From contig PCXY01000005.1 in NCBI GenBank assembly GCA_002762785.1, forward strand, positions 188,796 through 252,795: DNA of 64,000 nt. Direction: 5' to 3'. The notes under the pieces are model-generated. The model worked only from the letters and a program-made list of their open reading frames with translations, ran no database searches and was not told the DNA's origin. Within the stretch, counting starts at the first letter, position 1, and every line of letters begins with the position of its first letter. The DNA comes from Candidatus Woesearchaeota archaeon CG10_big_fil_rev_8_21_14_0_10_45_16 (GTDB lineage: Archaea; Nanobdellota; Nanobdellia; Woesearchaeales; GW2011-AR9). Shown in pieces: positions 2,897-25,810 of the stretch. The position numbers and the translations under genes were made by a program.

Positions 2897-3570
2897 AGAT
2901 CGCTATTTCCCAAAGACAGGACCAGAACAGACACGGAGATTGGGTAGACAGCCTAGAACAAACATATGGAGTGTATTTTCAGCAGTTTGGAATTTCACTG
3001 ATACCGATACCAAATACGACTATCGACGTTGCGTCACTTTTGGATTCTTTAGAAATTGAAGGGATAATCCTTTCCGGCGGGAATGATATCAATCCTGAAA
3101 GTTATGGAGCAGCTAGGAAGGAAGGAATATCTTTAGCCTTAGGACGGGACGAGGTCGAAAGAGAGATGCTCAAGTATGCTCTCGACAAAAATCTCCCTGT
3201 TCTGGGAATCTGTAGAGGGATGCAGTTCATTAATGTTTATTTTAAAGGAAAATTGGTGGATTTTAAAGCGACCGGTTATGAACATCTCCCAAGAATGGAT
3301 CATACAGTGATGATAAAAGAATTCACCGAGTTGAGTGGTTCTAGAGTAAATTCTTTCCATAATTATGGTATCAGAATAAATGATCTGGGGAATGGTTTGA
3401 AGCCATTTGCAATTACAGAAGATGAAAAAACAGTTGAGGGGTTCTACCATTCCTCACGACCGATAGCAGGGATCGTCTGGCATCCTGAACGGCAAAGTCC
3501 TGATCCTGTTTTCAATGAGAAGATCATGAAAGCTTTTGTTTCAGGAGAATTATTCTGGAAGAAAAAGTAA
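2893..3570 (+). CDS. Class I glutamine amidotransferase-like protein of the peptidase C26 / gamma-glutamyl hydrolase family
   Basis: The Cys nucleophile motif 'GICRGMQ' is present, with 'VWHPE' near the C-terminus. The ATG at 2893 overlaps the upstream stop as ATGA; the track start at 2857 is a TTG. Confidence 0.65.
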   Translation: MKIAISQRQDQNRHGDWVDSLEQTYGVYFQQFGISLIPIPNTTIDVASLLDSLEIEGIILSGGNDINPESYGAARKEGISLALGRDEVEREMLKYALDKNLPVLGICRGMQFINVYFKGKLVDFKATGYEHLPRMDHTVMIKEFTELSGSRVNSFHNYGIRINDLGNGLKPFAITEDEKTVEGFYHSSRPIAGIVWHPERQSPDPVFNEKIMKAFVSGELFWKKK

Positions 3571-4698: not shown

Positions 4699-5487
4699 AT
4701 GAAAGCGATAATTCTCGCAGCCGGCATGGGCACCAGATTAGGGAAATATACTGAAAGCCTGCCAAAATGCATGCTCAATTTCAACGGCAAAACCCTTATC
4801 GAGAGACAGGTGGAGACTCTTAGAAAATGCGGAATAACTGATATCACCATTGTCAAAGGATATATGCCAGAGAAGATCGATATACCCAACACTAAAACGT
4901 ACCTCAATTCTGATTATCCAAACACCAACATGGTAGAAACCCTTTTCTGCGCGGAAGCGGAAATGGATGACGACATCCTGATCTGTTACGCTGATATCAT
5001 CTATGAAGAGAAGGTTCTCCAGACGATATTAGATAGTCCATCAGATGTCGGCGTCACCGTCGATGAAGATTATTGGGAATACTGGCAGTCACGAGCGGAT
5101 AACCCCGAGGACGACATGGAAAGCCTCATCATCGAAGATGGCAGGATAGTCGATCTGGGAAATACTAAGTGCACCAGGGAAGACGCGAAAGTGCGTTATG
5201 TTGGCCTTATCAAATTATCAAAAGCCGGCGTTCAAAAGCTACGGGAAGTCTATCATCAGAACAAGATAGATCATTTTCTTAAGAACAAGCCATGGCTGCG
5301 GTCAAAGTCTTTCAAGAAAGCTTATATGACCTGCCTGATCCAGGCCCTTATCAACAGCGGACAGGAAGTGAAGCCGATCACCATCAGAAGAGGCTGGCTG
5401 GAGTTTGATACTGTTGAAGATTATGAGAGATATGTTAGCTGGGCTGATGAAGGAAATCTAGGACGTTTCCTGAGTCTCGACAACTAG
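4699..5487 (+). CDS. LicC-like nucleotidyltransferase, probably a CTP:phospho-alcohol cytidylyltransferase
   Basis: The N-terminal 'MKAIILAAGMGTRLG' motif followed by 'PKCML' is typical of the LicC / sugar-phosphate nucleotidyltransferase fold. Confidence 0.7.
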   Translation: MKAIILAAGMGTRLGKYTESLPKCMLNFNGKTLIERQVETLRKCGITDITIVKGYMPEKIDIPNTKTYLNSDYPNTNMVETLFCAEAEMDDDILICYADIIYEEKVLQTILDSPSDVGVTVDEDYWEYWQSRADNPEDDMESLIIEDGRIVDLGNTKCTREDAKVRYVGLIKLSKAGVQKLREVYHQNKIDHFLKNKPWLRSKSFKKAYMTCLIQALINSGQEVKPITIRRGWLEFDTVEDYERYVSWADEGNLGRFLSLDN

Positions 5488-6234
5488 GGCTTTCTTGTCA
5501 AGTCTCTTCAGGCCGCGGACCGTCGAGTAAAGCTTTCTTAAGAATTCTAAGAAGAACAAGGCTGAGTAGATCAGTGCTAGTTCAACAGGACGGTTGAAGA
5601 TTATCAGGAAAAACAGAAGGTTGAACGGCTGACCCCTTCGCACGATCTCCACAAAAATACGGTTGATGATACTCTTGTTACGGAAAGAGACACTTTCGCT
5701 ATAGACCTTCATGACAACTTCCCGCTTCTCATCTTTGAACCAATAAGGGTTGATGCGTATCAGTTTTTCCAACAGCCAGAAAAGGACTCCTGTCAAAGTA
5801 ATGATCAAGTAGAAGACATTTCCGTTCATTGAAAAATTAGCGATCGCCAAAGCGATAAACACGATAGGCGTGCCGAAGAACAACGCTAACTGCTCCAGGT
5901 AGGAACCAAGCATGCTGAACCGCCCTGTCATCCTGGCAAGGTTACCGTCGACATGATCACCGATGTAGGCGACGAAATTGAATAATATGAGTGCTAGGAT
6001 ATTATACCAATAATCTCCTAATGAAAACAGATATGCTGCCACCAGTTGGAGCATAATCCAAGATGAGGTCACCATGTTAGGTGTTATCGGCGTGCGGGCT
6101 AGTAGAGCTGCCGGATAAAGACTGATCTCCATCCAGAAACGTTGCGAAGGGCTCCAACATTCTTTTCGGCCTTTGGCAAGCATTTCGCCGAAAGTTTTCT
6201 TACCGGTCATCATGGTCCGCAAACGATGGATCAT
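5458..6234 (-). CDS. CDP-alcohol phosphatidyltransferase family membrane protein
   Basis: The family motif 'DHVDGNLAR...G...D' is present along with multiple hydrophobic helices. Confidence 0.7.
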   Translation of the reverse strand: MIHRLRTMMTGKKTFGEMLAKGRKECWSPSQRFWMEISLYPAALLARTPITPNMVTSSWIMLQLVAAYLFSLGDYWYNILALILFNFVAYIGDHVDGNLARMTGRFSMLGSYLEQLALFFGTPIVFIALAIANFSMNGNVFYLIITLTGVLFWLLEKLIRINPYWFKDEKREVVMKVYSESVSFRNKSIINRIFVEIVRRGQPFNLLFFLIIFNRPVELALIYSALFFLEFLRKLYSTVRGLKRLDKKALVVETQETS

Positions 6235-6300: not shown

Positions 6301-7083
6301 ATGGCCCAAAACAACAGCTTCTTTTCCACAAGCATTTTAAAGACATCGACAGCACAACTGAGCATGGATATCTTTGATGTCATCACGATCGACGGCTCCT
6401 CATTCACCGGAAAGTCTACCACTGCTAGAGCTCTAGCCAGGATGACCGGCTACCAGCCTTTAAATACCGGAGCGATATATCGAGCTGTAGGGTTCCTGAA
6501 ACAACGGAACAACATCCCTGATGATGATATCCAGCAGATAGTCAAGATGGTGCAGGGTCTTAAAATAAGATATTCCTATGAAAATGAAGCTCCAAAACTG
6601 ATGGTCGATGATGAGGATCTTTCATTTGTCATCAAAGACAGCTCACTGGTGCCTTTAGCGGCGCAAGTAGCCGGGATTCCGGCTGTCCGCGAAGCCCTTC
6701 TACAAATCCAGCGCGACATAGCTGCCAAAGGGAAGTATATTGTCGAGGGACGAGACACTGGAACAATCGTATTCCCTAATGCTCGGTGGAAATTTTTCAT
6801 AGATGCCGATATTGATGTCAAAGTAGCCCGCTTTTTTAAGACACTCTCGGAAGAAGAAAAAAAGAACTATACTTTTGAGCAGGTCAAGAAAATGCTGATT
6901 GAAGTAGACGAGAAAGATCGAGCTAGGAAGGTTGCTCCTCTTCGGCAGGCTGAAGATGCCATCTTTTACGACAACTCAGAGAGTCCGACGCCAGAGCAGG
7001 ATGCGGTTGTTCTTTGGTATCATATAACCCATGCAGCTGAGATCAAGAAAAATTACCCGAATATACTTTCTAGATTGAAATAG
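6301..7083 (+). CDS. cmk: Cytidylate kinase (CMP kinase)
   Basis: The P-loop 'ITIDGSSFTGKST' and overall Cmk-like layout are present. At 260 aa it is somewhat long for this family. Confidence 0.6.
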   Translation: MAQNNSFFSTSILKTSTAQLSMDIFDVITIDGSSFTGKSTTARALARMTGYQPLNTGAIYRAVGFLKQRNNIPDDDIQQIVKMVQGLKIRYSYENEAPKLMVDDEDLSFVIKDSSLVPLAAQVAGIPAVREALLQIQRDIAAKGKYIVEGRDTGTIVFPNARWKFFIDADIDVKVARFFKTLSEEEKKNYTFEQVKKMLIEVDEKDRARKVAPLRQAEDAIFYDNSESPTPEQDAVVLWYHITHAAEIKKNYPNILSRLK

Positions 7084-7141: not shown

Positions 7142-8593
7142 TCAGAACTGGAAGTAGAAGAACTGTACTGTCTGGGTCGGGCTGAAGAAGTACAGCAGCA
7201 GACACATCCCCGTGAGATAGATGGTCCATTCAAAATAACCTTTCTGGGCGACGGAAGAGACAAAACCCCTCTTGAAATAAGTCAGAGTATGTATGATCAT
7301 AAATACGATGACGAAAAATAAAGGCACCTGAAACTGCGGCAGGAGGCTGCCAAGCTGGGCTGACCATCCCGAGAAGTCAACAAAGATAAACTTCTTGACC
7401 GCATAGAGGATGTAAGAAGGATCATAGAGGCGGAAGATAAGGAGCGACAACACGAAAAGGTATAATGTGAAGAGGGTCTTGATGAGATTATGAAAACGAG
7501 GGAATGAAGATAATTTAGTCTTTACAGCCAGACGCTGGCGCCAGTCCCGGGTAGCCATGCCGATCAGCAGGAAAACTCCATGTAAAGTTCCCCAAATCAC
7601 GAAGTTCCAGCCAGCGCCGTGCCAGAGGCCGCTAGTAAAATAGACGATAAGGACAGAAATATAAAGCCTAGTCTTGGTGAAACCTTTTCTCATCAGCGGC
7701 ATAAACAGATAATCACGGAACCAGGTTGAGAGAGAGATGTGCCAGCGCTTCCAGAACTCAGCGATCGTCTTGGAGAAGAACGGCTTGTCAAAGTTAAGAG
7801 GGAAATGGAAACCCATGATCCTGGCCAGGCCGATAGCGACGTCAGAATATCCTGAAAAATCGCAATAGACCTGGATGGTGAAAGCGATAGCGCCGACGAT
7901 GATGGGAATACTTCCCGGGTAGGCTGTCGGATCGGCAAAAAAGACGTTGACAAAAGCAGCGATATTGTCAGCGATAACCATCTTCTTGACCAGACCCCAC
8001 ATCACCAAAGCCATGCCGTGCTTGAAGTTTTCTTGGGTGATGGTGATCGGCTTGTCAAGCTGCGGCAGCAGGTCAGAAGCGCGGATGATCGGACCGGCTA
8101 CCAGCTGCGGGAAAAATGAGACGTACAAGGCAAATCTCAGGAAGGAGTCTGTCGGTTTCAGCTTGCGGAAATAGATATCCAGCGTGTAACTCATGGTCTG
8201 GAAGGTGAAGAACGATATCCCGATCGGCAGGATGATGTGGGCTAACGGCAGATGGGGATCATTGCCGAACCAGGAAGCGACCATATTTGTCGTCTTTATA
8301 GCAAAGTTAGTGTACTTAAAGAAAGCCAGGACTCCCAGGTTGCCGATGAGACTGACGGCAAGATACCACTTTCTGTTCTTATCGCTTTTCGAATCATGGA
8401 TAGCTTTCCCACAGAAAAAATCCAGCAAAGAAGAAAACAACAAGAGGACGACCAAAGGGCCGCTTGAAAAATAGTAGAAAAAGTAGCTGGCGAAGAGCAA
8501 GAACAGATACTGGTACTTCCTAGTTTTTACAATCAGAAGGAATAAAAGAACAACAACAGCAAAATAGAGGAAAGGAACGCTGTTAAATAACAT
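7142..8593 (-). CDS. MBOAT family membrane O-acyltransferase of the DltB/AlgI type
   Basis: The conserved His motif 'WHISLSTWFRDYLFMPL' is present in a polytopic protein. The start was trimmed to the 'MLFNSVPFLYF' Met so that it no longer overlaps the upstream gene. Confidence 0.8.
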   Translation of the reverse strand: MLFNSVPFLYFAVVVLLFLLIVKTRKYQYLFLLFASYFFYYFSSGPLVVLLLFSSLLDFFCGKAIHDSKSDKNRKWYLAVSLIGNLGVLAFFKYTNFAIKTTNMVASWFGNDPHLPLAHIILPIGISFFTFQTMSYTLDIYFRKLKPTDSFLRFALYVSFFPQLVAGPIIRASDLLPQLDKPITITQENFKHGMALVMWGLVKKMVIADNIAAFVNVFFADPTAYPGSIPIIVGAIAFTIQVYCDFSGYSDVAIGLARIMGFHFPLNFDKPFFSKTIAEFWKRWHISLSTWFRDYLFMPLMRKGFTKTRLYISVLIVYFTSGLWHGAGWNFVIWGTLHGVFLLIGMATRDWRQRLAVKTKLSSFPRFHNLIKTLFTLYLFVLSLLIFRLYDPSYILYAVKKFIFVDFSGWSAQLGSLLPQFQVPLFFVIVFMIIHTLTYFKRGFVSSVAQKGYFEWTIYLTGMCLLLYFFSPTQTVQFFYFQF

Positions 8594-9551
8594 CGTACTC
8601 ACCCCTGGCGATACGTTCCGATAACAGGCGTGAGCCTTCACGGTTTAGGTGTGTAAGGTCGGTGAAATATTCAGCAGAAAAATCGGTTTCGATGTTGACA
8701 AGCCTGAAGCCGATGATCTCTGACAATCCTTGGATGTAATCATTATACTGCTGAAGAGAATCGGCAGGAACAACGTTAAAGGTAATAGGATTCATCGGCA
8801 TCTGGACGACGACCACTTCGATACCTTCTGCTTTTAAAGAAGCGGTGAGATACGCAAATGCTTCCCTCTCTCTTCGCGGGTGATCACCAAAACTGAATAT
8901 GCCCAAGACTTTTGGATCCTGAAGCTTTTGTTCCAGTTCTTCCGCTGATTGGATATCCTCAAACTGATGGGGATTCTTTAGGTTGTTACCAGCAGGTACA
9001 ACAGCTTCCGAGGAAGAGGACCGGTGCAGGAAACTCAGGAAGTAAGGAAGGATGAATTTTCTTTTGTAAAGAAGACGCTGGAACCTGTTCATGGAGATCA
9101 GTTCCAGTTCGTCGCTATCTAGTCTCTCCAAAAGATAGGAAGAAGGGGTGACGGATGATGACATCAACATGAAGAAATCGTCGTTCTGGTTGATGGTCTC
9201 ATCAAATGATGCAGGAGTGATGCCGATCACGACCTTGCTTGGTCTAGCAGAGATTATCAAATCTTTCTGAAGAGCTACTTGGAACGGCCTCATGCCAGCT
9301 ACGCCTAGGTTGAAGCACGGCGGAGAATCTTTGAGAAGATCCTCGATGACCGTGCAGTCGACATCTTCCCTGATCTGGCTGTCCCCTACAAATAAGATAC
9401 TCCCGTCTGGAACTTCAGCATAAAGATGAAGAACCTCCACGAAATGATTGCCCTGAGCGCCGAACTGAGAGAAATTATAAGCGAAAGAGCAGTAGAGGCC
9501 GGTACTAAGAAGGACTGCCAACAATGGAAAAAACAGATACTTCAGGTTCAT
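8583..9551 (-). CDS. SGNH-hydrolase-like protein of the DltD/AlgX type
   Basis: An N-terminal hydrophobic anchor is followed by block I 'FVGDSQ' and block V 'DLTHLN'. Confidence 0.55.
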   Translation of the reverse strand: MNLKYLFFPLLAVLLSTGLYCSFAYNFSQFGAQGNHFVEVLHLYAEVPDGSILFVGDSQIREDVDCTVIEDLLKDSPPCFNLGVAGMRPFQVALQKDLIISARPSKVVIGITPASFDETINQNDDFFMLMSSSVTPSSYLLERLDSDELELISMNRFQRLLYKRKFILPYFLSFLHRSSSSEAVVPAGNNLKNPHQFEDIQSAEELEQKLQDPKVLGIFSFGDHPRREREAFAYLTASLKAEGIEVVVVQMPMNPITFNVVPADSLQQYNDYIQGLSEIIGFRLVNIETDFSAEYFTDLTHLNREGSRLLSERIARGEYDVI

Positions 9552-9659
9552 GCACCCTCAGGAATGGGGCCGATTTAAATATTTTTAGTTTTTAAAGGTA
9601 GTAACAAAAAAGGACCTTATTTCCTAAAGTTTAAAAAGGGCTGATCAGGTAAAGACAGT

Positions 9660-10103
9660 ATGCTTTTAGACCACATCAATAATCTTAAGAATTATTTTCA
9701 ACTAAACCCCAACCTGAAAGAAGCTCTGGCTTTTCTGCAAAGAGAAGATCTGGGTTCTTTAAGTCCAGGACGGCACGAGATCATGGACGACAAAGTTTTC
9801 GCCATCGTCATCGACTGTGACCAGATGCCGAAAGAGAACACGAAACCGGAAAGACACCGCAAGTATCTTGATCTTCATTACACTATCAAAGGGAATGATC
9901 TAGTCGGCTGGAAACCACTGCATCTCTGTTCTGCCAGCACCGAGTATGATGAACAGGACGACTACCAGCTGTTCAGCAATCTTCCAGAACAGTGGATAGA
10001 TGTGCCTGAAAATCATTTTATCCTTTTCTTCCCAGAAGATGTCCATGCCCCGCTCGCCGGAACTGGTCATCTTAAGAAAGTCGTCGTCAAAGTCAAGATT
10101 TAA
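9660..10103 (+). CDS. YhcH/YjgK/YiaL family protein (DUF386)
   Basis: The 147-aa protein has a YhcH-like beta-sandwich composition with motifs 'HRKYLDLHYTIKGND' and 'FPEDVHAP'. Confidence 0.55.
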   Translation: MLLDHINNLKNYFQLNPNLKEALAFLQREDLGSLSPGRHEIMDDKVFAIVIDCDQMPKENTKPERHRKYLDLHYTIKGNDLVGWKPLHLCSASTEYDEQDDYQLFSNLPEQWIDVPENHFILFFPEDVHAPLAGTGHLKKVVVKVKI

Positions 10104-10126
10104 ATTCATTTAATTTCGATACGCTG

Positions 10127-11227
10127 ATGTCATCAAGATCCAAAAAAATTCTTGGAAACCTGGCCATCTTTATAGTTGGAATTATCATCATCTTCAGTAT
10201 CGCGGAAATCACGGTCAGGGTCTTCAAACAGGATGAACTGGCTCCGGGCCTGTGGCCGGAAGAGAACACCAGATATGTTCCTGAGCTGAAGCGCAACCTT
10301 TACGTCAACATCAGCAATCTTACCAGGTCAACTTCTGAATACAGCTACCAAGTAAGTACTAATGAACAAGGTTTTCGGGACTTTCATCCAATCCTAAAAG
10401 ACGAAGAAACAACAAGGATACTAGGTCTGGGATCTTCTCAAACATTTGGCAACACCGTGGATGCGGACGATACTTACCTCAGCCTTCTAGGTAATGAGCT
10501 AGATGTCGAGACCATTAATCTCGGCCTGGGTGGGATCGGTCTGGATGAGATGAAGATTATCTTGCAGGAGTACGGCTTTTCTTATCAGCCGGACCTTATC
10601 ATCGTTGAGACTAGCTTGGGAAACTTCCAAAGCGGATCTGATTTTGCCCATAAGTCGGAGGCTTCGAGAGAAACTAAGAACAGCGCTTTTTTCTGGCTGT
10701 ATGAACATTCAAAACTGGTGAACCATCTTTATTGGCTGTCAAAGACCACCCATTTAGGAAGCAAGGTGGTAAACACTCTGAAACTAAACGAGCATACTCA
10801 AGACAGCGTCTCTTTTGAGCTCTCTCTTCTCAGGGGTGATGATGATCCCACTTTGTATGAAGCGAAGAAGAGCGTCTTCCGCAATCTTCAGGAGATCAAG
10901 AAGCTGGCTGATGAAAAAGAGGTTCCATTGATGGTTGTTTTTGTCTCTTCATCGTATCAGGTTGAACCAAAAAGGCTTCAAGCTCTCGTTGAAAAGTTTG
11001 GTCTTGCAGAAGAAGATGTCAATCCAGAAAACGCCGAAAATTTTTTCCGTGAAAGCTGTAAAAGGCTGAACATCCCCTTTTTCGAGACCACGGCAGCGCT
11101 CCAGGATCACCAGAAGGGGACTCCAGTTATCTGGAACTTTGACAATCATCTCACGCCAAGAGGTAATCAGATATATGCTTCAGAACTCGCAAAATTTATT
11201 AAAGAACATCATCTAATCGAAAGGTGA
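10127..11227 (+). CDS. Membrane-anchored SGNH/DltD-like protein
   Basis: An N-terminal TM helix is followed by 'ILGLGSSQTFG' and 'INLGLGGIG', which resemble SGNH motifs. Confidence 0.45.
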   Translation: MSSRSKKILGNLAIFIVGIIIIFSIAEITVRVFKQDELAPGLWPEENTRYVPELKRNLYVNISNLTRSTSEYSYQVSTNEQGFRDFHPILKDEETTRILGLGSSQTFGNTVDADDTYLSLLGNELDVETINLGLGGIGLDEMKIILQEYGFSYQPDLIIVETSLGNFQSGSDFAHKSEASRETKNSAFFWLYEHSKLVNHLYWLSKTTHLGSKVVNTLKLNEHTQDSVSFELSLLRGDDDPTLYEAKKSVFRNLQEIKKLADEKEVPLMVVFVSSSYQVEPKRLQALVEKFGLAEEDVNPENAENFFRESCKRLNIPFFETTAALQDHQKGTPVIWNFDNHLTPRGNQIYASELAKFIKEHHLIER

Positions 11228-11269
11228 ACCGATGATTTAGTGTCGGCAACAGGTTTAGAAAGATTTACC

Positions 11270-12196
11270 ATGGATAAAAAAGAACTATTGGAATATACTT
11301 TTCAAAAAATAGGTTCTCACATCGCGACGAGAGCCGTTCCAGCCAGACTGAACAACGATCCTGAATTTGATCCAGAAAAAGCAGCACAGATCTGCCATTG
11401 GCTGTACCGGCTAGGGGGCTGCGACCAGGCTCTTTATGATAAAGCTGTCAATGATTTCATAGACTATTCGCTGGAATTCCTAAAATTACAGGCGGAACTC
11501 GAGAGCGCCCAAAGATATCACTTTTCATCCTATAAAAAACTGCAGGAAGAGATCTATGAAAATCCAGAAGTGATGGAAAACCGGTATCTCAACGGGTTGT
11601 ATCTTACACAGGCCTTGTGGATAAACCACCACAAGATGCTGGCATTTTTCATCAAAAAGTTCTGCTCTGGTCTTGACGTTCAGGGAAAAGCAGTAGAAGT
11701 CCCGGTCGGTACCGGTATCTATGCAGCAGAATTCGCAGCAAGAAATAAAGATTGGCTGGTAGAAGGATATGATCTCAGCCCCAGTGCGGTTGATTATTCT
11801 AAAAAGATGATACCCATAATCTCGCCAGATAAAGAAGTCGCCGTATTTGAGAAGAATGTCTTTGACCTCCCTGACGACAAGAAGTATGACCGTATCATCT
11901 GCGGAGAATTGATGGAAAATTTTGAAGATCCCCATCCACTGCTAGAAAAGCTGGGAAAACTTCTCAACGAGGAAGGAAAGATCTTTCTCACCAGCTCCGT
12001 CTGGGCGGCGGCAATCGACCACATCTATCTCTTTACCAAAGTACAAGAACTGAGGGATGTCCTTTCTTCTCACTTTAAGATAGAGGAAGAACTGGCCCTC
12101 AATGTATTCCAAAACAAGAAGCCCGAAGATGAAAAGACACCGATAAATTATGCCTGTATCCTCAGCCGCCGGTCAGAAGAGCCATCTCAAGACTAA
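11270..12196 (+). CDS. Class I SAM-dependent methyltransferase
   Basis: The SAM-binding motif 'VEVPVGTGIYAAEFA' followed by 'EGYDLS' is present. The ATG start was chosen in place of the track's GTG at 11240. Confidence 0.65.
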   Translation: MDKKELLEYTFQKIGSHIATRAVPARLNNDPEFDPEKAAQICHWLYRLGGCDQALYDKAVNDFIDYSLEFLKLQAELESAQRYHFSSYKKLQEEIYENPEVMENRYLNGLYLTQALWINHHKMLAFFIKKFCSGLDVQGKAVEVPVGTGIYAAEFAARNKDWLVEGYDLSPSAVDYSKKMIPIISPDKEVAVFEKNVFDLPDDKKYDRIICGELMENFEDPHPLLEKLGKLLNEEGKIFLTSSVWAAAIDHIYLFTKVQELRDVLSSHFKIEEELALNVFQNKKPEDEKTPINYACILSRRSEEPSQD

Positions 12197-12228
12197 AAGA
12201 AAACTTCACAAGAGTTTCATCTATCAAA

Positions 12229-13773
12229 ATGATCAGATTAATCCAAGATTATTTCCAACTGTCAGCAGAACGCTCTCCAAAGAAAGTTGCAGTCGTCTAC
12301 GGTGAAGAGAAGATAACGTACAAAGATCTGGACAAAAAGAGCAACCAGTTGGCTCATCTTATCAGGTCGATCGGCGTGAAGAGAAACGACCGAGTAGCAT
12401 TCTGCCTGCATAAGTCGATCGATGCTATCGTTTCCATCCTTGCCATCTTAAGATCCGACTGCTGTTATGTTCCGATGGACGCTAAATCGCCGGAACAGCG
12501 GCTTCGGTATATCGTTGAAGACTGCCAGCCGGCAGTTATCATCTGCAGTCCCGAGACTCACGTTTCCGTGCAATCTTTAGTAGATGGTTGGATCTCAGGA
12601 AAAAGACCAATAGTGATCGTTCTCGGATCTGAGGAGATTGAGAGACAACAGGTGAGCCTGCCTCCAATAGGAAACATCCAGGATGACCTTGCCTACATCT
12701 TCTATACTTCTGGATCTACTGGGAAGCCGAAAGGAGTGATGATAACTCATGGCAATCTTATCAATTTTGTAGAGTGGGCTGCTGATTGTTTCCAGGTCGC
12801 TGAAGATGATATCATCGCCAACCATGCGCCGCTCCACTTTGACATTTCCGGGTTTGATATCTACGCATCGTTTAAGAAAGGGGCTACTCTAGTGTTAGTG
12901 CCGCCGGAACTTAGTCTATTTCCAGCAAAGATAGTCAACCTCATCGAACAAGAGAAGATCACTATCTGGCAGTCGGTTCCCAGCATCCTGGTGCATATGG
13001 CCAAGATGGGAGCGCTTCAAGAGAACACCATGCCCAGCCTGAAGAAGATCATCTTCATCGGCGAAGTCTTTCCCACACCCTTCCTTATCCGCTGGATGAA
13101 GACCTTCCCGAAGAAAGAATTCATCAACTTTTACGGTCCGACAGAATGCACCATCGGCTGTGCATATTATCCTATCAAAGAGGTTCCAGAGGATTCGACA
13201 ACCGCTATTCCTTTAGGAAGAGCAGCTAAAAACATGGAAATGTTCGCCCTGAAAGAAGATGACAGCCTGGCTAACGTTGGAGAAATAGGTGAGTTATGCA
13301 TCCGAGGGCCGACAGTGAGTCCCGGCTACTGGAACAATAAAGAGAAGACTGAGAAAGCGTTTGTGGTAGATCCGCTATTTCCCCATCTAAATGGAAAAAT
13401 CTATAAAACAGGAGACTTGGTAGAAGCCCTTCCTGAGGAGATGTTCACATTCAGAGGAAGAAAAGACAGCCAGATCAAGTTTATGGGATACCGGATCGAG
13501 CTGGGAGAGATAGAGTCAGCGTTATACTCCCTGGGATATGTTAAAGAAGCTGCAGTCATCTACTTGTCTTCAGATGAGAAAAGTGAGATTGTCGCCTTCG
13601 TGGCTCTAAATCGTGAGAGCAGCCCCGGACAGATAAAAGATGATCTGAAGAAGAAGATCCCTTCCTACATGATCCCCCGGACAATCACTATAAAAGATGC
13701 TCTTCCCCTCAACAGTTCAGGGAAGATAGACCGGGTAAAATTAAGACAGGAGTGCGAGAACGATGGAAACTAA
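12229..13773 (+). CDS. DltA-like adenylation enzyme (AMP-binding, carrier-protein ligase)
   Basis: The adenylation-domain motifs 'YTSGSTGKPKGV', 'YGPTE', 'YKTGD', 'GRKDSQIKFMGYRIELGEIE' and 'SGKIDR' are all present. Confidence 0.8.
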   Translation: MIRLIQDYFQLSAERSPKKVAVVYGEEKITYKDLDKKSNQLAHLIRSIGVKRNDRVAFCLHKSIDAIVSILAILRSDCCYVPMDAKSPEQRLRYIVEDCQPAVIICSPETHVSVQSLVDGWISGKRPIVIVLGSEEIERQQVSLPPIGNIQDDLAYIFYTSGSTGKPKGVMITHGNLINFVEWAADCFQVAEDDIIANHAPLHFDISGFDIYASFKKGATLVLVPPELSLFPAKIVNLIEQEKITIWQSVPSILVHMAKMGALQENTMPSLKKIIFIGEVFPTPFLIRWMKTFPKKEFINFYGPTECTIGCAYYPIKEVPEDSTTAIPLGRAAKNMEMFALKEDDSLANVGEIGELCIRGPTVSPGYWNNKEKTEKAFVVDPLFPHLNGKIYKTGDLVEALPEEMFTFRGRKDSQIKFMGYRIELGEIESALYSLGYVKEAAVIYLSSDEKSEIVAFVALNRESSPGQIKDDLKKKIPSYMIPRTITIKDALPLNSSGKIDRVKLRQECENDGN

Positions 13774-14020
13774 AGAGATAATAATTGATATCATCAAAGA
13801 ATTTAAGCAGAAAGACGAAATCCTGCATCCAGAGGAACTGATCAGCAGTGGTTTCTTTGATTCGTTTGATATCTTTTCATTGATCGAAAAGATTGAGAAG
13901 AGATTTTCTTTGAAACTGGATGGAAACGACATCACTATCGAGAATTTTGAAAACATCAGCACCATCTCGGCTATCGTTGAGAGATCCCTGAAAGGCAAAA
14001 GCGATGAGCAGCAGACCTAA
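13763..14020 (+). CDS. Small DltC-like carrier protein
   Basis: The 85-aa acidic protein carries a putative phosphopantetheine-attachment Ser in 'GFFDSFD'. Its start overlaps the upstream adenylase stop by 11 nt. Confidence 0.6.
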   Translation: METKEIIIDIIKEFKQKDEILHPEELISSGFFDSFDIFSLIEKIEKRFSLKLDGNDITIENFENISTISAIVERSLKGKSDEQQT

Positions 14021-14367
14021 TTGATGACCACGACAAAAGCCATGGCATTTTCATCAGTGTGAGAGATGCTGCAGAGAATATCTTTTCTCTCTTCTCCTTT
14101 TATGAAAACAGATGGTCTGCCAGTAGCATCATTGATGACTTCTATATCCAGTAGAGGGATTTTGGAGGAGATGTTTCTTGAAATGGCTTTTAACACTGCT
14201 TCTTTCACGCAGAACTTACCGGTAAGATGGATCGCAGGATCTACTTTGCTTCGGCAATAAGTGAGTTCCCTAGGCGTAAAAAGAAGAGAGAGGAAATGGT
14301 CGTCATCCAGTTTTTCTTTGAAGCGGCTGACTTTCTCGATATCTACTCCTATGTTTTGAAAAGACAT
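14017..14367 (-). CDS. acpS: Holo-ACP synthase (4'-phosphopantetheinyl transferase, AcpS type)
   Basis: The motifs 'GVDIEKVSRF' and 'KEAVLKA' match the AcpS pattern. The protein is 116 aa. Confidence 0.65.
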   Translation of the reverse strand: MSFQNIGVDIEKVSRFKEKLDDDHFLSLLFTPRELTYCRSKVDPAIHLTGKFCVKEAVLKAISRNISSKIPLLDIEVINDATGRPSVFIKGEERKDILCSISHTDENAMAFVVVIN

Positions 14368-14450
14368 ACCGCAGATATCTATGATCCCATTATAAAGATT
14401 GTTAAAGTAGGAACAAAAAATTTAAAAGGAACTTGGCAGACATAGGCAAT

Positions 14451-14588
14451 ATGGGAGCGATATGGGATTTCCTAAAAGTACGTAAGATCTGGTGGATAAC
14501 ACCGCTGGTTATTCTGGCGATTCTCTTAGCGTTTATGTTTCTGGCCGGAGGGAGCGCGCCGGTAACTGATGTCTACGCCCCCATTTAA
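14451..14588 (+). CDS. Putative 45-aa single-TM membrane peptide
   Basis: This is an ATG-started ORF, 'MGAIWDFLKVRKIWWITPLVILAILLAFMFLAGG', that is absent from the 60-aa ORF track. It is strongly hydrophobic. Confidence 0.3.
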   Translation: MGAIWDFLKVRKIWWITPLVILAILLAFMFLAGGSAPVTDVYAPI

Positions 14589-17652: not shown

Positions 17653-18636
17653 ATGATCAAGATGAAAGCAACAAAATTCCTGATGATTACATCCTTTATC
17701 TTGATACTTGTTCTCATGACCAGCTGTTTTCAAAACCAGCCAAAACAAAAGATAAAGCCGGCAAGCATCCCAGTTAAAGAGCAATGTCAAGGTGAATTCT
17801 GTAATGATGATGTTGAGATAATATGCCAAAGCAGTAATTGTGATGCAGAACTGTCACAACAATATCTCCAATTACAGACTAAAGTTGTCAAGTGTTTAGA
17901 TAACTACTTCCAGTTCTCTGCTCCAAGAGTTTCTTATAAGATATCATCAAAAGAAAAAACTGCTTGTGAGCAAGAAGGAGGATGCTGTTGCACTACCGGA
18001 GGAATGACTGATTGGTCAGGAGTTTCACAATCTTATCTCTATGGAAATACACCCTTTGGAGCGACAGGAGTGCAAAGTCCGAAAGATATCATTGCAGAAG
18101 AACATGAAACAACACATTTCTTCTTGTTCCAGATGCTTAAAGGTCATCCTGCTTGGTTTAGTGAAGCTATCGCTATCCAGACTAATGAACGGGCAGGATG
18201 TGATGTTTCTGCGATGGATCTGGAAGGAAATGCAAAAGAGTTTGCAAAAAAAGGAGATGCTTATCTTAGAGAGACTAACCTAGATCTACAATCCTCTGGA
18301 GGAGTAAAGATGAGTGATGGATCTATTCTTGATAATGATTATTATTTGAGATTAAAAAATGGTGAAAGTTCTCTTGAGACACGAGATTCACATACCATCG
18401 GTGCATTATGGGTTATCGGATTGAAAGAAGATTATGGATGTGAACAGCAATGCATATTGAGGATCGTCAAAGAATTGCAGAAGTATACTGAATCACAATG
18501 CCGACCAGGAACTTATTGTGGAGATAATCCATTGCAATACCCAGAAATCGTTACAGATGAAGTGATCAAAGAGAAGACCGATCTAATCACTGGTCGCGAT
18601 ACTAGAGAATTATTTGAGCTGTTAGGAATCTTGTGA
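17653..18636 (+). CDS. Secreted Cys-rich protein with an HExxH motif, a putative zincin-like metalloprotein
   Basis: A signal-peptide-like N-terminus is followed by many Cys residues and the motif 'HETTHFF'. Confidence 0.45.
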   Translation: MIKMKATKFLMITSFILILVLMTSCFQNQPKQKIKPASIPVKEQCQGEFCNDDVEIICQSSNCDAELSQQYLQLQTKVVKCLDNYFQFSAPRVSYKISSKEKTACEQEGGCCCTTGGMTDWSGVSQSYLYGNTPFGATGVQSPKDIIAEEHETTHFFLFQMLKGHPAWFSEAIAIQTNERAGCDVSAMDLEGNAKEFAKKGDAYLRETNLDLQSSGGVKMSDGSILDNDYYLRLKNGESSLETRDSHTIGALWVIGLKEDYGCEQQCILRIVKELQKYTESQCRPGTYCGDNPLQYPEIVTDEVIKEKTDLITGRDTRELFELLGIL

Positions 18637-18841
18637 ATAAATCATAAAGAAAAGGTGGACAGCTTACCTGGTTTCCCACGGAATGCAGTACACCCAAGTA
18701 CGGAAGCGGTCTTAATTTCTGTGTTCGAAATGGGAACAGATGAACCCCGCCCCTATGGCCGTCCAATAGGCTCGAGAAAGCCTCCCTTTATAAAGATTTT
18801 GATTATTTTTCCACAACGATTTAAAAAGGCAGTAGAATCAG

Positions 18842-20017
18842 ATGCTTATGAAAACGGTGGTCGTATCAGGATACTTTAACCCTATCCATAGAGGTCATGT
18901 CTCTTTATTCAAAGAAGCCCGTAAATTAGGCGAAAAGTTGATCGTCATCGTCAACAATGATAAACAGGTTCTGATAAAAGGTTCTCAAGCTTTCATGGAT
19001 GAAGAAGAGAGGAAATACATCCTCGAATCCATCCGTTATGTGGATGAAGTGGTCGTTTCCATCGATGAGGACGGCACCCAATGCAGGACTTTAGAGATGC
19101 TCAAGCCCGATATCTTTGCCAACGGCGGAGACAGGAAAAATACCAGTGATATCCCGGAAGCCAAGGTCTGCGAAAGATTAGGCATCCAGATGATCTTCAA
19201 CGTCGGCGGCGACAAGACCCAGAGCAGCAGCTGGCTGTTAGGCAGTGTCAAAGGACCTTCAATTCTCGATGAATACGATCAGACCAAGCATGGTGACAAA
19301 AAAGTCCTGATCGCGGATGTGGACGAGACCATCTGCGAGACCTGTCAGGAGATATCATCGGAGATGGCGGTCGAGATAGATCGGTTGGTAAAACAAGGCT
19401 ATACCTGGGCCTTCATCAGCGGCACCAAAGTTGATGACTTGCAGAAGATGATCTCCTCCAAAGTGAAAGAAGAACATCATCTATTAGCGACGACCGGCAC
19501 CAATTATGTGAAAGTAACTCCTCAAGGAAATGATCTTATCTATCAACAATCTTTCTCCACTGAACAAAAGCAAGAGATCATGGCAGCGTTAGACAAGGTG
19601 ATCACCCATTTCGACATAAGGGCCATGACCACCAAAGAAGACCAGGTCCAAGATAGGGATTCACAGATCACCTTATCTGCTATCGGCAGAAATGCGCCTA
19701 TAGAACTAAAGAAACAATATGATCCAGATGGTGAGAAACGAAAAGTCTGGATAGGATATCTGCAAGATCTTCTTGGAGATAGATATGATTACAAGATCGG
19801 CGGTACTACCTCTTTAGACATCACCCAGAAAGGCTTAGACAAAGAATGGGGTATCAAAGAGTTTGCTAAACAGAACAACATCCTTTTGAAAGAGATTTTA
19901 TTCTTTGGTGACAAGATCTATCCCGGCGGCAACGATTACCCTGCTTCCAAGATAGTTGATTGCATCGCTGTCAAGAATCCGGAAGATACGTTAAGAGAGT
20001 TGAGGAAGATACCATGA
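18842..20017 (+). CDS. Bifunctional protein with an N-terminal RfaE-II/TagD-like nucleotidyltransferase domain (HxGH) and a C-terminal HAD-superfamily phosphatase domain
   Basis: The nucleotidyltransferase motif is 'VVSGYFNPIHRGHV'. HAD motif I is 'LIADVDETICET'. Confidence 0.6.
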   Translation: MLMKTVVVSGYFNPIHRGHVSLFKEARKLGEKLIVIVNNDKQVLIKGSQAFMDEEERKYILESIRYVDEVVVSIDEDGTQCRTLEMLKPDIFANGGDRKNTSDIPEAKVCERLGIQMIFNVGGDKTQSSSWLLGSVKGPSILDEYDQTKHGDKKVLIADVDETICETCQEISSEMAVEIDRLVKQGYTWAFISGTKVDDLQKMISSKVKEEHHLLATTGTNYVKVTPQGNDLIYQQSFSTEQKQEIMAALDKVITHFDIRAMTTKEDQVQDRDSQITLSAIGRNAPIELKKQYDPDGEKRKVWIGYLQDLLGDRYDYKIGGTTSLDITQKGLDKEWGIKEFAKQNNILLKEILFFGDKIYPGGNDYPASKIVDCIAVKNPEDTLRELRKIP

Positions 20018-23117: not shown

Positions 23118-23279
23118 TTACGGTTTCTTCAATCTTGGCAGCACCCAATAGGCAAACACGGCAGCCACCACGATCACGCTCCAGAAGACGATATCTGGAA
23201 TCAAGCGTAATGCAAAAAGGATCAGATTAGCGATAATGACGATCAAAAAAAAGATGCCGATAACTTTAGCCGGTTTCAT
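23118..23279 (-). CDS. Putative 53-aa two-TM membrane peptide translationally coupled to hisS
   Basis: Its ATG overlaps the hisS stop as ATGA. The hydrophobic sequence is 'MKPAKVIGIFFLIVIIANLILFALRLIPDIVFWSVIVVAAVFAYWVLPRLKKP'. It is absent from the ORF track because it is shorter than 60 aa. Confidence 0.3.
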   Translation of the reverse strand: MKPAKVIGIFFLIVIIANLILFALRLIPDIVFWSVIVVAAVFAYWVLPRLKKP

Positions 23280-24607: not shown

Positions 24608-24832
24608 TTATACATCTCAACTATAGAACGATAGACCGCTCTCGCTGTATCTATATCTTCAGAAGAGATTACGCCCATCTTATAGGCTCTTTCCATCTCT
24701 AATAATTTTTCTAAGTTATCTTCGATAGGACTGCTGGCGATGAACACCCTGGCTGTTCCCGCTATAGCTAGTTTGACTTCCTCTTTGTATTACATTTTTA
24801 TTTTCCATCTTTCATATCTCCCTGCTTAGAGC

Positions 24833-25756: not shown

Positions 25757-25810
25757 AAAGGAAAGAAAACCAGTATTTAAAACATTCGTTTACAGGATAG
25801 AGATAAAGAG

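What the first reader, a model, noticed from the sequence alone, without database searches (positions are those of the whole stretch)
7142..14367. Complete Dlt-like module (adenylase + carrier + MBOAT + two DltD-like SGNH proteins + AcpS) in an archaeal genome
A DltA-like adenylation enzyme (12229-13773) overlaps a small DltC-like carrier (13763-14020). A PPTase of the AcpS type is adjacent. Upstream lie an MBOAT of the DltB type with 'WHISLSTWFRDY' and two membrane-anchored SGNH/DltD-like proteins. This gene set is what Gram-positive bacteria use to D-alanylate teichoic acids. Its presence with all accessory parts in an archaeal chromosome implies aminoacyl esterification of a surface polymer. 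The co-located methyltransferase and DUF386 protein could be extra tailoring steps.
Basis: partly seen in the sequence, partly recalled or inferred. Interest (0 to 1): 0.75.

Follow-up and report, generated by a model that had tools for sequence, protein, structure and literature searches.

The report
Carrier-fed Dlt-like acylation module, DPANN archaeon
A tiny groundwater archaeon (Woesearchaeota) carries a conserved gene set that most likely loads a small amino acid onto a carrier protein and passes it through a membrane acyltransferase onto a cell-surface molecule; it works like bacterial teichoic-acid D-alanylation but is built from a different, hybrid set of parts.

Summary
The adenylase is an NRPS-type amino-acid adenylation enzyme. 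It is not a fatty-acyl ligase and not a DltA orthologue, and its pocket code DIFQIIFIGK differs from D-Ala codes. The carrier has Ser34 in a DltC-like GFFDSF motif, and an AcpS gene is adjacent.

The MBOAT is not DltB-type. It is AlgI/PatA-type, 483 aa, and ends in FFYFQF. This is the FxYxxF acyl-shuttle motif that Firmicutes carry on the separate microprotein DltX. One SGNH protein is DltD-like by fold. The other is a generic membrane-anchored SGNH protein.

Seven genes, all except DUF386, recur together in two further loci (one clearly archaeal), and six of them in a third that has a different loader. The loader varies (A domain, acyl-ligase fusion, FkbH), while carrier, MBOAT and DltD-like partner recur, usually with AcpS and the methyltransferase. 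MBOATs that sit beside carriers have lost a PLGG(N/S)(R/K) loop motif. All 79 carrier-less AlgI-like MBOATs examined keep it.

Best reading: carrier-fed, Dlt-like esterification outside the cytoplasm with a probably small neutral amino acid, on an unknown acceptor. This is a new variant of a known kind.

The parts
7142..8593 (-). AlgI/PatA-type MBOAT, 483 aa from M17 (the ORF extends to a GTG at 8641). The catalytic His is His341 in ORF numbering.
   Evidence: PF03062 scores 91.5 bits and TIGR04091 DltB 172.7 bits, below its 375 cutoff. The only PDB sequence matches are DltB 8jem/6bug, with RWHISLS and LWHGA aligned to the DltB His motifs. Homologues start at MLFNS.
7145..7162 (-). C-terminal FFYFQF, an FxYxxF acyl-shuttle motif. 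Tyr496 is the predicted acyl-Tyr intermediate.
   Evidence: Read directly from the sequence. 118 of 120 MBOAT homologues end in FxYxxF. The motif and its role are defined in PMC12148441.
7619..7621 (-). Codon of the invariant MBOAT His (His341, in SGLWHGA).
   Evidence: Invariant in alignment A2. Aligned to the DltB catalytic His region. Coordinates.
8583..9551 (-). DltD-like SGNH protein of 322 aa with an N-terminal membrane anchor. Ser58 (GDSQ), Gly86, Asn121/123, Asp298 and His301 (DLTHLN) are conserved.
   Evidence: Pfam DltD scores 25.9 bits against a 22.7 cutoff. The residues are invariant in 14 homologues. The AF2 model has pLDDT 84. The best PDB folds are DltD 6o93, 6pfx and 3bma, E 1e-7 to 1e-5.
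9552..9659 (.). Divergent intergenic region between the MBOAT/DltD-like pair and the DUF386-SGNH-MTase-A-CP operon. It is AT-rich, with TTTAAATA and TTTAAAAA TATA-like boxes.
   Evidence: Read from the sequence. No tool here scores archaeal promoters.
9660..10103 (+). DUF386 (YhcH/YjgK/YiaL) protein. It is first in the plus-strand gene run but is not conserved in related modules.
   Evidence: PF04074 scores 145.8 bits and TIGR00022 104.6 bits against a 45.5 cutoff. No DUF386 hit in L025, L029, L112 or L114.
10127..11227 (+). Second membrane-anchored SGNH protein, 366 aa. Ser104 lies in a variant GSSQ block I; Asp339-x-His341 forms block V.
   Evidence: Gly102, Ser104 and His341 are invariant and Asp339 nearly so in 40 homologues. 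The AF2 model has pLDDT 92. Fold hits are SGNH esterases (CgnD, TesA, acetyl-xylan esterases), E 1e-10 to 1e-6, with no DltD among the top 50.
11270..12196 (+). Class-I SAM methyltransferase (308 aa as called in the Logan and JGI assemblies) with an uncharacterised N-terminal extension of about 140 aa.
   Evidence: Methyltransf_12/23/25/11 hits over residues 145-259. Only weak PDB matches. Orthologues at 46-52% identity in L025, L029, L112 and L114.
12229..13773 (+). Stand-alone NRPS-type amino-acid adenylation enzyme, 514 aa. Specificity code DIFQIIFIGK. Asp205 corresponds to PheA Asp235 and Lys499 to Lys517.
   Evidence: TIGR01733 scores 390 bits against a 317 cutoff. The DltA models fall below cutoff. 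PDB hits are NRPS A domains and DltA. Code.
13763..14020 (+). 85-aa carrier protein. The phosphopantetheine-attachment Ser34 (13862-13864) lies in GFFDSF.
   Evidence: PP-binding scores 18.9 bits and the DltC model 24.3 bits, both below cutoff. Ser34 aligns with the DltC and ACP Ser. Coordinates.
14017..14367 (-). AcpS-type 4'-phosphopantetheinyl transferase, 116 aa, convergent with the carrier gene.
   Evidence: PF01648 scores 65.3 bits and TIGR00556 77.1 bits against a 45.35 cutoff. Orthologues lie next to the carrier in L023, L025, L027, L029, L112 and L114.

Best explanation
This is a carrier-protein-fed MBOAT-SGNH acylation system. It works like the Dlt pathway but is built on an AlgI/PatA-type MBOAT.

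Proposed steps:
1. AcpS converts the 85-aa carrier to its holo form at Ser34.
2. The stand-alone adenylation enzyme activates an alpha-amino acid and thioesterifies it to the carrier. The crowded, apolar pocket suggests a small neutral residue such as Gly or Ala.
3. The conserved methyltransferase may modify the carrier-bound acyl group or the acceptor.
4. The MBOAT takes the acyl group from the carrier at its cytoplasmic face. Using His341, it moves the group onto Tyr496 of its own C-terminal FFYFQF shuttle on the outer face.
5. The two membrane-anchored SGNH proteins (DltD-like Ser58 and SGNH Ser104) take it from the Tyr and deliver it as an ester to an extracytoplasmic acceptor. The acceptor is probably a glycan or a phospho-headgroup-bearing lipid or polymer made by the surrounding island.

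What is shown: domain identities, catalytic residues, the motif, synteny, and the link between motif loss and carrier genes. What is inferred: the donor-acceptor chain, the substrate, the role of the methyltransferase, and the acceptor.
For: 1. All catalytic parts are present and intact: A-domain Asp235/Lys517 equivalents, carrier Ser34, AcpS, MBOAT His301/His341, C-terminal FxYxxF, and SGNH Ser/Asp/His in both partners.

2. The FxYxxF Tyr shuttle has been shown biochemically for DltX and PatA (PMC12148441).

3. Synteny. SGNH-MTase-A-CP-AcpS-DltD-like-MBOAT recurs at 39-68% identity in L025/L026 and L029. In L112 and L114 the loader is replaced while the rest of the module largely stays. L112 has an acyl-ligase/2-Hacid_dh/ACP fusion. 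L114 has FkbH plus ACP. Two more adenylase/MBOAT pairs appear to share contigs, judged by matching longest-contig lengths.

4. Specificity of the linkage. None of 79 AlgI-like MBOAT loci that keep the PLGG(N/S)(R/K) motif has a carrier or AcpS within 8 kb. Eleven of 13 MBOATs lacking the motif do (Fisher p about 1e-12). These include classical DltB (L014, L019) and bacterial A-CP-long-MBOAT-SGNH operons (L005, L009, L013). Two MBOATs picked only because they lack the motif (P0182, P0244) both proved to sit next to FkbH plus ACP.

5. The window contains no other acyltransferase (GNAT, condensation or 2-oxoacid_dh type) that could consume the loaded carrier.

6. Gene layout: A and CP overlap by 11 nt, gaps within the plus-strand run are 12-32 nt, and the MBOAT pair is transcribed divergently from the same 108-bp AT-rich spacer.
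Against: - There is no biochemical or expression evidence.
- The closest adenylase homologue (P0011, 56% identity) and a CPR relative sit with AcpS, a carrier and GNAT-type transferases, with no MBOAT nearby (L023, L027). The A-CP-AcpS cassette can therefore serve other acceptors.
- The SGNH-DltD-like-MBOAT trio also exists without any visible carrier genes (L030, L032).
- Two MBOATs lacking the motif have no carrier in the visible flank (L041, L060).
- The loci behind the Fisher test are not phylogenetically independent. In the unbiased metagenome sample alone p is only 0.04.
- The substrate guess rests on pocket bulk. The code matches no class among the 120 closest homologues.
- That the lost motif binds CoA is my inference, not an established fact.
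Confidence: 0.6

Rival explanations
1. Two unrelated systems lie side by side in a glycan island. The MBOAT and its SGNH partners O-acetylate a surface glycan from acetyl-CoA, as AlgI/PatA do. The A-CP-AcpS-MTase set makes an aminoacyl thioester for a different, cytoplasmic transfer.
For: The MBOAT belongs to the AlgI-like clade and has the fused shuttle typical of acetyl-CoA users. A-CP-AcpS occurs with GNAT transferases and no MBOAT in L023 and L027. The trio occurs without carriers in L030 and L032.
Against: The window offers no alternative acyltransferase for the loaded carrier. Every examined MBOAT of this subclade (57% identity or more) is linked to a carrier module, even where the loader differs. 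The subclade has lost the PLGG(N/S)(R/K) motif, as DltB has, while all 79 carrier-less relatives keep it.
Confidence: 0.2
2. The same carrier-fed machinery operates, but the acceptor is a membrane lipid or glycolipid head group, or an S-layer glycoprotein glycan, rather than a teichoic-acid-like polymer.
For: A CDP-alcohol phosphatidyltransferase family gene is conserved near the MBOAT: 59% identity and directly adjacent in L112, and present in L029. Its best NCBIfam hits are archaetidylinositol-phosphate synthases, below cutoff. No TagF-like polymerase is present in the window.
Against: Nothing in the sequence separates this from a polymer acceptor. Glycosyltransferase, UDP-glucose dehydrogenase and nucleotidyltransferase genes also flank the module.
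Confidence: 0.12
3. This is a genuine dltABCD operon recently transferred from a Gram-positive bacterium, and it D-alanylates a teichoic acid.
For: PGAP names the adenylase 'D-alanine--poly(phosphoribitol) ligase'. The DltA subfamily model is the second-best NCBIfam hit.
Against: The adenylase is 29% identical to DltA and below both DltA cutoffs. Its code DIFQIIFIGK differs from DL(M/F)x(M/L)CT(V/C)AK and lacks the Cys. The MBOAT is AlgI-type with a fused shuttle, not a short DltB plus DltX as in L019. The nearest relatives of all parts are in DPANN or CPR organisms. GC is uniform.
Confidence: 0.03

Closest known systems
Dlt pathway of Firmicutes (DltA, DltC, DltB, DltX, DltD)
   Same: Both have a stand-alone adenylation enzyme and a small carrier with a DSF Ser motif activated by AcpS. 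Both have an MBOAT with the two conserved His, an FxYxxF Tyr acyl shuttle, and a membrane-anchored DltD-fold SGNH transferase. [quoted passage not shown]
   Different: The adenylase is not a DltA orthologue and its pocket is not the D-Ala pocket. The MBOAT is AlgI-like, about 90 aa longer, and has the shuttle motif fused on, so there is no DltX gene. There is a second, non-DltD SGNH protein and a conserved methyltransferase. The host is an archaeon with no known teichoic acid.
PatA/PatB and AlgI/AlgJ/AlgX (bacterial MBOAT-SGNH O-acetyltransferases with a fused shuttle)
   Same: The MBOAT architecture matches: core, extra C-terminal helices, and a terminal FxYxxF. Sequence identity to AlgI-annotated proteins is 45-50%. 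As in AlgJ/AlgX, there are two SGNH-type partners.
   Different: Those systems use acetyl-CoA and have no carrier protein (PMC12148441). Here a carrier, its loader and AcpS are conserved neighbours, and the PLGG(N/S)(R/K) loop motif of the acetyl-type enzymes is lost.
Uncharacterised bacterial A-CP-long-MBOAT-SGNH operons (Lachnospiraceae L009, Bacillota L005, Chitinophaga MAG L013)
   Same: They show the same hybrid design: a DltA-like adenylase and carrier next to a 478-551 aa MBOAT ending FMYASF, FIYREF or FIYFNF, followed by a membrane-anchored protein. That partner is weakly SGNH-like in L009 and has no family match in L005 and L013. The PLGG motif is also lost.
   Different: Their adenylases are only 30-35% identical to the window's and have different codes (DVKIMSLCNK, DVQVITFIYK). 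They have no conserved methyltransferase and only one partner protein. I found no publication on them.
AlmEFG of Vibrio cholerae (glycine addition to lipid A; recalled from memory, not tested here)
   Same: A DltA-like ligase and a DltC-like carrier deliver a small amino acid to an envelope molecule.
   Different: The transferase AlmG is a cytoplasmic-face LpxL-type acyltransferase, not an MBOAT/SGNH pair.

Membership tests
Dlt pathway (DltABCDX) | Adenylase is a DltA equivalog | tested here: not met
   TIGR01734 scores 334 bits against a 560 cutoff, and NF003417 358 against 476. Identity is 29% to B. subtilis DltA (sequence from memory) and 30% to L019 DltA.
Dlt pathway (DltABCDX) | D-Ala pocket, including the Cys at the PheA-301 position | tested here: not met
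   The window code is DIFQIIFIGK with Ile at 301. Classical codes are DLMVLCTCAK (L019), DLFILCTVAK (L014) and DLMTMCTVAK (B. subtilis).
Dlt pathway (DltABCDX) | Small carrier with a phosphopantetheinylated Ser in a (L/F)(L/F)DSF motif | tested here: met
   Ser34 in GFFDSF aligns with the DltC and ACP Ser. The DltC equivalog HMMs are below cutoff, however (24.3 bits against 68).
Dlt pathway (DltABCDX) | Short DltB-type MBOAT (about 390-420 aa) plus a separate DltX microprotein carrying FxYxxF | tested here: not met
   The MBOAT is 483 aa with FFYFQF fused at its end. TIGR04091 scores 172.7 bits against a 375 cutoff. The classical layout is seen in L019: a 391-aa DltB plus a 55-aa DltX ending FIYNQF.
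Dlt pathway (DltABCDX) | DltD: membrane-anchored SGNH protein with the DltD fold and a Ser/Asp/His triad | tested here: inconclusive
   Pfam DltD scores 25.9 bits against 22.7, over the C-terminal 80 aa only. TIGR04092 scores 15.5 against 150. The best PDB folds are DltD, but TM-scores are only 0.46-0.54. Ser58, Asp298 and His301 are invariant.
Dlt pathway (DltABCDX) | Acceptor is a (lipo)teichoic acid | not testable with these tools
   There is no chemistry. No TagF/LtaS-type polymerase was seen in the window.
Bacterial MBOAT-SGNH acyltransferases with fused shuttle (AlgI/PatA type) | MBOAT core with the invariant catalytic His | tested here: met
   PF03062 scores 91.5 bits. His301 and His341 are conserved.
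Bacterial MBOAT-SGNH acyltransferases with fused shuttle (AlgI/PatA type) | C-terminal FxYxxF hexapeptide after extra TM helices | tested here: met
   The protein ends in FFYFQF. 118 of 120 homologues share the motif. The definition comes from PMC12148441.
Bacterial MBOAT-SGNH acyltransferases with fused shuttle (AlgI/PatA type) | Acyl-CoA donor, with no carrier protein in the pathway | tested here: not met
   Carrier, loader and AcpS genes are conserved neighbours. The PLGG(N/S)(R/K) motif kept by 79 of 79 carrier-less relatives is lost. The donor itself was not assayed.
NRPS-type amino-acid adenylation domains | TIGR01733 above cutoff, with the Asp235 and Lys517 equivalents that bind the alpha-amino and carboxylate groups | tested here: met
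   TIGR01733 scores 390 bits against 317.4. Asp205 and Lys499 are present. Top PDB hits are NRPS A domains, a Pro-carrier ligase and DltA.
Fatty-acyl-AMP/CoA ligases | Best match to acyl-CoA/FAAL models and no alpha-amino-binding Asp | tested here: not met
   Acyl-CoA ligase models score 150-290 bits, all far below their cutoffs and below the amino-acid model. The Asp is present.
AcpS-type phosphopantetheinyl transferases | ACPS domain of about 120 aa above the curated cutoff | tested here: met
   PF01648 scores 65.3 bits and TIGR00556 77.1 against 45.35.

The most novel reading that the evidence does not exclude
Woesearchaeota and related DPANN archaea possess a family of carrier-protein-fed MBOAT acylation systems. 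A constant export core consists of an MBOAT with a fused Tyr shuttle and the DltD-like SGNH protein, usually with the second SGNH protein, the methyltransferase and AcpS. This core is combined with interchangeable loaders: amino-acid adenylases with different pockets, an acyl-ligase/dehydrogenase fusion, or FkbH. Different lineages would therefore ester-decorate their surfaces with different acyl groups. Loss of the cytoplasmic PLGG(N/S)(R/K) loop would be a general sequence marker that an MBOAT has switched from acyl-CoA to carrier-protein donors, in bacteria as well as archaea.
Probability: 0.4. Interest if true: 0.75.

Novelty: new variant of a known kind. Interest (0 to 1): 0.6.

Why it matters
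1. From my own knowledge, archaea are generally regarded as lacking ACP/AcpS-dependent pathways and teichoic-acid-type ester decorations. A conserved carrier-dependent surface acylation system in DPANN archaea would add a new kind of archaeal envelope chemistry. That chemistry is relevant to how these episymbionts contact their hosts.

2. The current mechanistic literature divides MBOAT-SGNH systems into two kinds. One is Dlt, with a carrier and a separate DltX. The other is 'all others', with acyl-CoA and a fused shuttle (PMC12148441). This module and its bacterial counterparts are a third combination: a carrier with a fused shuttle.

3. The link between motif loss and carrier genes gives a simple, testable sequence rule for predicting the donor type of uncharacterised MBOATs.

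4. Loader swapping and pocket divergence between orthologous modules suggest that the surface modification is diversifying.

Tried and rejected
- The genome-contig scan with the adenylase did not find the source genome. It returned only relatives at 36% identity or less. These were still useful as bacterial comparators and supplied a classical dlt operon (L019).
I used it instead as a background sample of AlgI-like MBOAT loci.
- PDB sequence searches with the two SGNH proteins found nothing usable, so AF2 models and Foldseek were needed.
- An NJ tree of adenylases groups the window with DPANN/CPR stand-alone enzymes. It does not resolve their relation to DltA versus NRPS domains, since pairwise identity is about 30% to both. 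I draw no conclusion from it.
- I rejected recent transfer from Firmicutes and a fatty-acyl ligase identity.
- I first thought the methyltransferase N-methylates the aminoacyl group. That is weakened because its orthologues also accompany FkbH and acyl-ligase loaders, so any role must be more general.
- The small 76-85 aa ORFs and the 2-oxoacid_dh-like gene beside AcpS in L025, L029 and L112 are absent from the window. They are not part of the minimal module.
- L108, an MBOAT next to a gene 26% identical to the adenylase, keeps the PLGGNR motif and has no carrier. I treat it as an unrelated neighbour.
- Schultz et al. 2023 (Nat Microbiol) is not held in the library.
- The second cluster look-up returned no organism names.
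- Literature searches for Dlt or MBOAT in DPANN/Woesearchaeota archaea found nothing relevant.

Full report
**Observation**

- MBOAT, 7142-8641(-): PF03062 91.5 bits; it contains RWHISLSTWFRDY.
- A 322-aa protein, 8583-9551(-): a weak but above-threshold Pfam DltD hit.
- DUF386, 9660-10103(+).
- A 366-aa protein, 10127-11227(+): weak GDSL/ALGX hits.
- A class-I methyltransferase, 11240-12196(+).
- An adenylation enzyme, 12229-13773(+).
- An 85-aa carrier, 13763-14020(+), overlapping the adenylase by 11 nt.
- AcpS, 14017-14367(-).

Homologue alignments move the MBOAT start to M17, giving 7142-8593 and 483 aa. The methyltransferase start probably moves to 11270.

The window is archaeal. It carries a thermosome, Cbf5, HerA, a presenilin-type peptidase, an intron-containing tRNA-His and a lone 5S rRNA. 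Its proteins are deposited as Candidatus Woesearchaeota archaeon CG10_big_fil_rev_8_21_14_0... (PIN73371-73378) on contigs of about 560-568 kb.

The same gene order appears in independent Logan and JGI assemblies, and GC is flat at 0.43-0.46. I therefore see no sign of a chimeric contig or a very recent insertion.

**The cytoplasmic half**

The adenylase passes the curated threshold for amino-acid adenylation domains (TIGR01733, 390 bits against 317). It fails both DltA models (334 against 560 and 358 against 476). Acyl-CoA and fatty-acid ligase models score lower and far below their cutoffs. Its best solved relatives are NRPS A domains, a stand-alone Pro-carrier ligase and DltA, all at similar scores.

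The motif spacing checks out. The ten specificity positions read DIFQIIFIGK.
- The Asp that binds the alpha-amino group and the Lys that binds the carboxylate are present (Asp205, Lys499). The substrate is therefore an alpha-amino acid, not a fatty acid.
- Classical DltA enzymes read DLMVLCTCAK (L019, from a textbook dltA-B-C-D-X operon), DLFILCTVAK (L014) and DLMTMCTVAK (B. subtilis, from memory).
- The window enzyme has Ile where DltA has the Cys. From memory, that Cys is implicated in D-selectivity.
- It has bulkier residues at four other positions. I read this as a small, apolar pocket suited to Gly or Ala. This is an inference, not a prediction tool's output.
- The code is unique among the 120 nearest homologues. 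Orthologues in syntenic modules read DL(F/W)LFTMVEK, and CPR relatives read DLFNFNMVQK. The activated amino acid evidently differs between lineages.

The carrier's Ser34 sits in GFFDSF and aligns with the DltC and ACP serines. AcpS passes its domain threshold.

**The membrane half**

The MBOAT matches DltB structures in the PDB by sequence, and both His motifs are conserved. That is simply because no other MBOAT chain in the PDB matched by sequence.
- Its closest relatives are AlgI-annotated proteins of DPANN archaea, Thaumarchaeota and bacteria, at 45-68% identity.
- It ends in FFYFQF. This is the FxYxxF 'acyl shuttle'. The Tyr in this motif has been shown to carry the acyl group in DltX and in PatA (PMC12148441).
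- 118 of 120 homologues end the same way.

The DltX function is therefore fused to the MBOAT, as in acetyl-CoA-dependent systems and unlike classical Dlt.

The 322-aa partner has an N-terminal helix and invariant Ser58 (GDSQ), Gly86, Asn121/123, Asp298 and His301. Its AF2 model (pLDDT 84) finds DltD structures as its best PDB folds, followed by generic SGNH esterases.

The 366-aa partner has an N-terminal helix, invariant Ser104 and His341, and near-invariant Asp339 in a D-x-H block. Its model (pLDDT 92) matches generic SGNH esterases, not DltD.

**Are the two halves one system?**

Three lines of evidence say yes.

*1. Synteny.* In L025/L026, an archaeal contig with proteasome and aCPSF1 genes, the seven genes SGNH, MTase, A, CP, AcpS, DltD-like and MBOAT recur at 39-57% identity in a different order. 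L029 holds the same seven and also several of the window's other neighbours. Two further adenylase/MBOAT pairs appear to share contigs, judged by matching longest-contig lengths.
- In L112 the MBOAT (65%), DltD-like (46%), SGNH (48%), MTase (52%), AcpS (53%) and CDP-alcohol transferase (59%) are all retained. The loader is instead a 935-aa 2-hydroxyacid-dehydrogenase/ACP/acyl-ligase fusion, with an extra ACP, an aminotransferase, an SDR and a MaoC dehydratase.
- In L114 the loader is FkbH plus ACP, with AcpS and a methyltransferase 46.5% identical to the window's.

The MBOAT, the DltD-like partner, a carrier and usually AcpS and the methyltransferase stay together, while the loading enzyme is swapped. 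DUF386 is never part of the set.

*2. Specificity.* In 80 AlgI-like MBOAT loci from metagenomes (36-50% identity), only one has a carrier module (L036: FkbH-ACP-MaoC-AcpS). One other has an unrelated ligase-like neighbour.

*3. A sequence signature.* Carrier-less MBOATs have W(L/F)RDYLYIP(L/M)GG(N/S)(R/K) followed by GGLWHGA. The window's subclade has WFRDYLFxP(L/I)(M/V)... followed by SGLWHGA. I searched all fetched loci with HMMs built from the carriers and AcpS proteins.
- None of 79 loci that keep the motif has a carrier or AcpS within 8 kb.
- Eleven of 13 loci that lack it do (Fisher p about 1e-12).
- Those eleven include classical DltB (L014, L019), three bacterial A-CP-long-MBOAT operons (L005, L009, L013), and the archaeal modules.
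- P0182 and P0244 were chosen only because they lack the motif. Both proved to lie next to FkbH plus ACP.
- The exceptions are L041 and L060, which lack the motif and show no carrier in the visible flank.

The loci are not independent. In the unbiased sample alone p is 0.04. I treat the signature as strong correlative evidence that this MBOAT takes a carrier-bound donor. The idea that the loop normally contacts CoA at the cytoplasmic face is my own inference.

Finally, the window has no GNAT, condensation or 2-oxoacid_dh-type enzyme that could otherwise use the loaded carrier.

**Evidence against a single system**

- The A-CP-AcpS cassette also occurs with GNAT-type transferases and no MBOAT. 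This is seen in the closest adenylase homologue's locus (L023) and in a CPR bacterium next to TagF-like genes (L027).
- The SGNH/DltD-like/MBOAT trio also occurs without carriers, in Aenigmarchaeota L030 and in L032.

The module therefore looks like a combination of two mobile units. The rival reading, adjacent but independent systems, cannot be excluded without biochemistry.

**Mechanism proposed (confidence about 0.6)**

1. AcpS primes the carrier.
2. The adenylase loads a probably small, neutral alpha-amino acid.
3. The MBOAT transfers it via His341 to Tyr496 of its own C-terminal shuttle on the outer face.
4. The DltD-like and second SGNH proteins pass it, via Ser58 and/or Ser104, to an extracytoplasmic acceptor.

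The role of the methyltransferase is unknown. It accompanies amino-acid, acyl-ligase and FkbH loaders alike, so it cannot be a dedicated N-methylase. It may methylate the alpha-heteroatom of the carrier-bound group, or it may act on the acceptor.

The acceptor is also unknown. The surrounding island encodes GT2, UDP-glucose dehydrogenase, several nucleotidyltransferases, a CDP-alcohol phosphatidyltransferase and a CDP-phosphoramidate-like pathway. This suggests a glycan or lipid bearing phospho-linked head groups rather than a classical teichoic acid.

**Comparison and novelty**

The system works like Dlt but fails membership on the adenylase, the pocket, the MBOAT type and DltX. It has the AlgI/PatA architecture but not the carrier-free, acyl-CoA character described for that class (PMC12148441).

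The same hybrid exists, apparently uncharacterised, in Lachnospiraceae, other Bacillota and a Chitinophaga MAG.

PGAP already labels the genes generically as 'D-alanine--poly(phosphoribitol) ligase' and 'alginate O-acetyltransferase'. I found no paper describing a Dlt-like or carrier-fed MBOAT system in archaea.

I rate it a new variant of a known kind, with interest 0.6.

Noticed in passing
window 5-3570 (+): A 963-aa fusion has an N-terminal cytidylyltransferase joined to a PRK05849-family PPDK_N/PEP-utilizers enzyme (NF004508, 858 bits against a 501 cutoff). Next to it is a Peptidase_C26 protein whose best NCBIfam match is gamma-glutamyl-CDP-amidate hydrolase (112 bits, below the 250 cutoff). 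This resembles the Campylobacter Cj1416/Cj1417/Cj1418 route to CDP-phosphoramidate (PMC11800397). The same pair occurs in L029 13160-16788. A phosphoramidate-type surface modification in a DPANN archaeon would be unusual.
   Followed up: partly
L112 1-9000; L114 1797-4996; L113 9421-11114; L036 7001-9788: Related MBOAT modules have other loaders in place of the amino-acid adenylase. L112 has a 935-aa 2-hydroxyacid-dehydrogenase/ACP/acyl-ligase fusion with an aminotransferase, an SDR and MaoC. L114, L113 and L036 have FkbH plus ACP, with AcpS in L114 and L036 and MaoC in L036 only. All four MBOATs lack the PLGG(N/S)(R/K) motif.
   Followed up: partly
L023 9508-14549; L027 9678-14621: The closest adenylase relatives sit in AcpS-A-carrier cassettes coupled to GNAT-type transferases instead of an MBOAT. 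In L023 the carrier is fused to the GNAT. In the CPR bacterium L027 the cassette lies among TagF-like glycerophosphotransferases and a TagD-like cytidylyltransferase.
   Followed up: no
L025 11883-13149; L029 2996-4202; L112 1-899: In three related modules AcpS is fused to or followed by a 2-oxoacid_dh-like (CAT-fold) domain of about 200 aa, which seems to lack the usual catalytic His. In L025 and L029 there is also a 76-85 aa ORF without a DS carrier motif. Neither gene is present in the window.
   Followed up: partly
window 23276-25897 (-): Two tRNA-His(GTG) genes lie directly next to the histidyl-tRNA synthetase gene. One (24848-24919) is 72 nt. The other (25810-25897) is 88 nt and presumably contains an intron. 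A 227-aa ORF of unknown family lies between them.
   Followed up: no
window 6301-7083 (+): A bacterial-type cytidylate kinase (TIGR00017, 164 bits against a 135 cutoff) is embedded in the glycan island, between the CDP-alcohol transferase and the MBOAT. It could regenerate CDP/CTP for the CDP-dependent steps. It could also stand in for the Cj1415-type kinase.
   Followed up: no
window 18842-20017 (+) and 4699-6234: There is a cytidylyltransferase fused to a PMM/HAD-IIB phosphatase-like domain. Separately, an NTP_transf_3 gene is paired with a CDP-alcohol phosphatidyltransferase, a layout resembling IPCT/DIPPS-type phospho-alcohol transfer. The CDP-alcohol transferase is 59% identical to the one directly beside the MBOAT in L112.
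   Followed up: partly
window 17653-18636 (+): A 327-aa Cys-rich protein with an N-terminal hydrophobic segment has no Pfam or NCBIfam match. It lies between the sugar-nucleotide genes and the 5S rRNA gene (18654-18766).
   Followed up: no
window 14433-14588 (+): A small ORF of about 51 aa was called in the JGI copy (L002 8178-8333) as DUF5989, a small membrane protein. It lies between AcpS and the GT2 gene. The same family sits next to the GT2 gene in L029.
   Followed up: no
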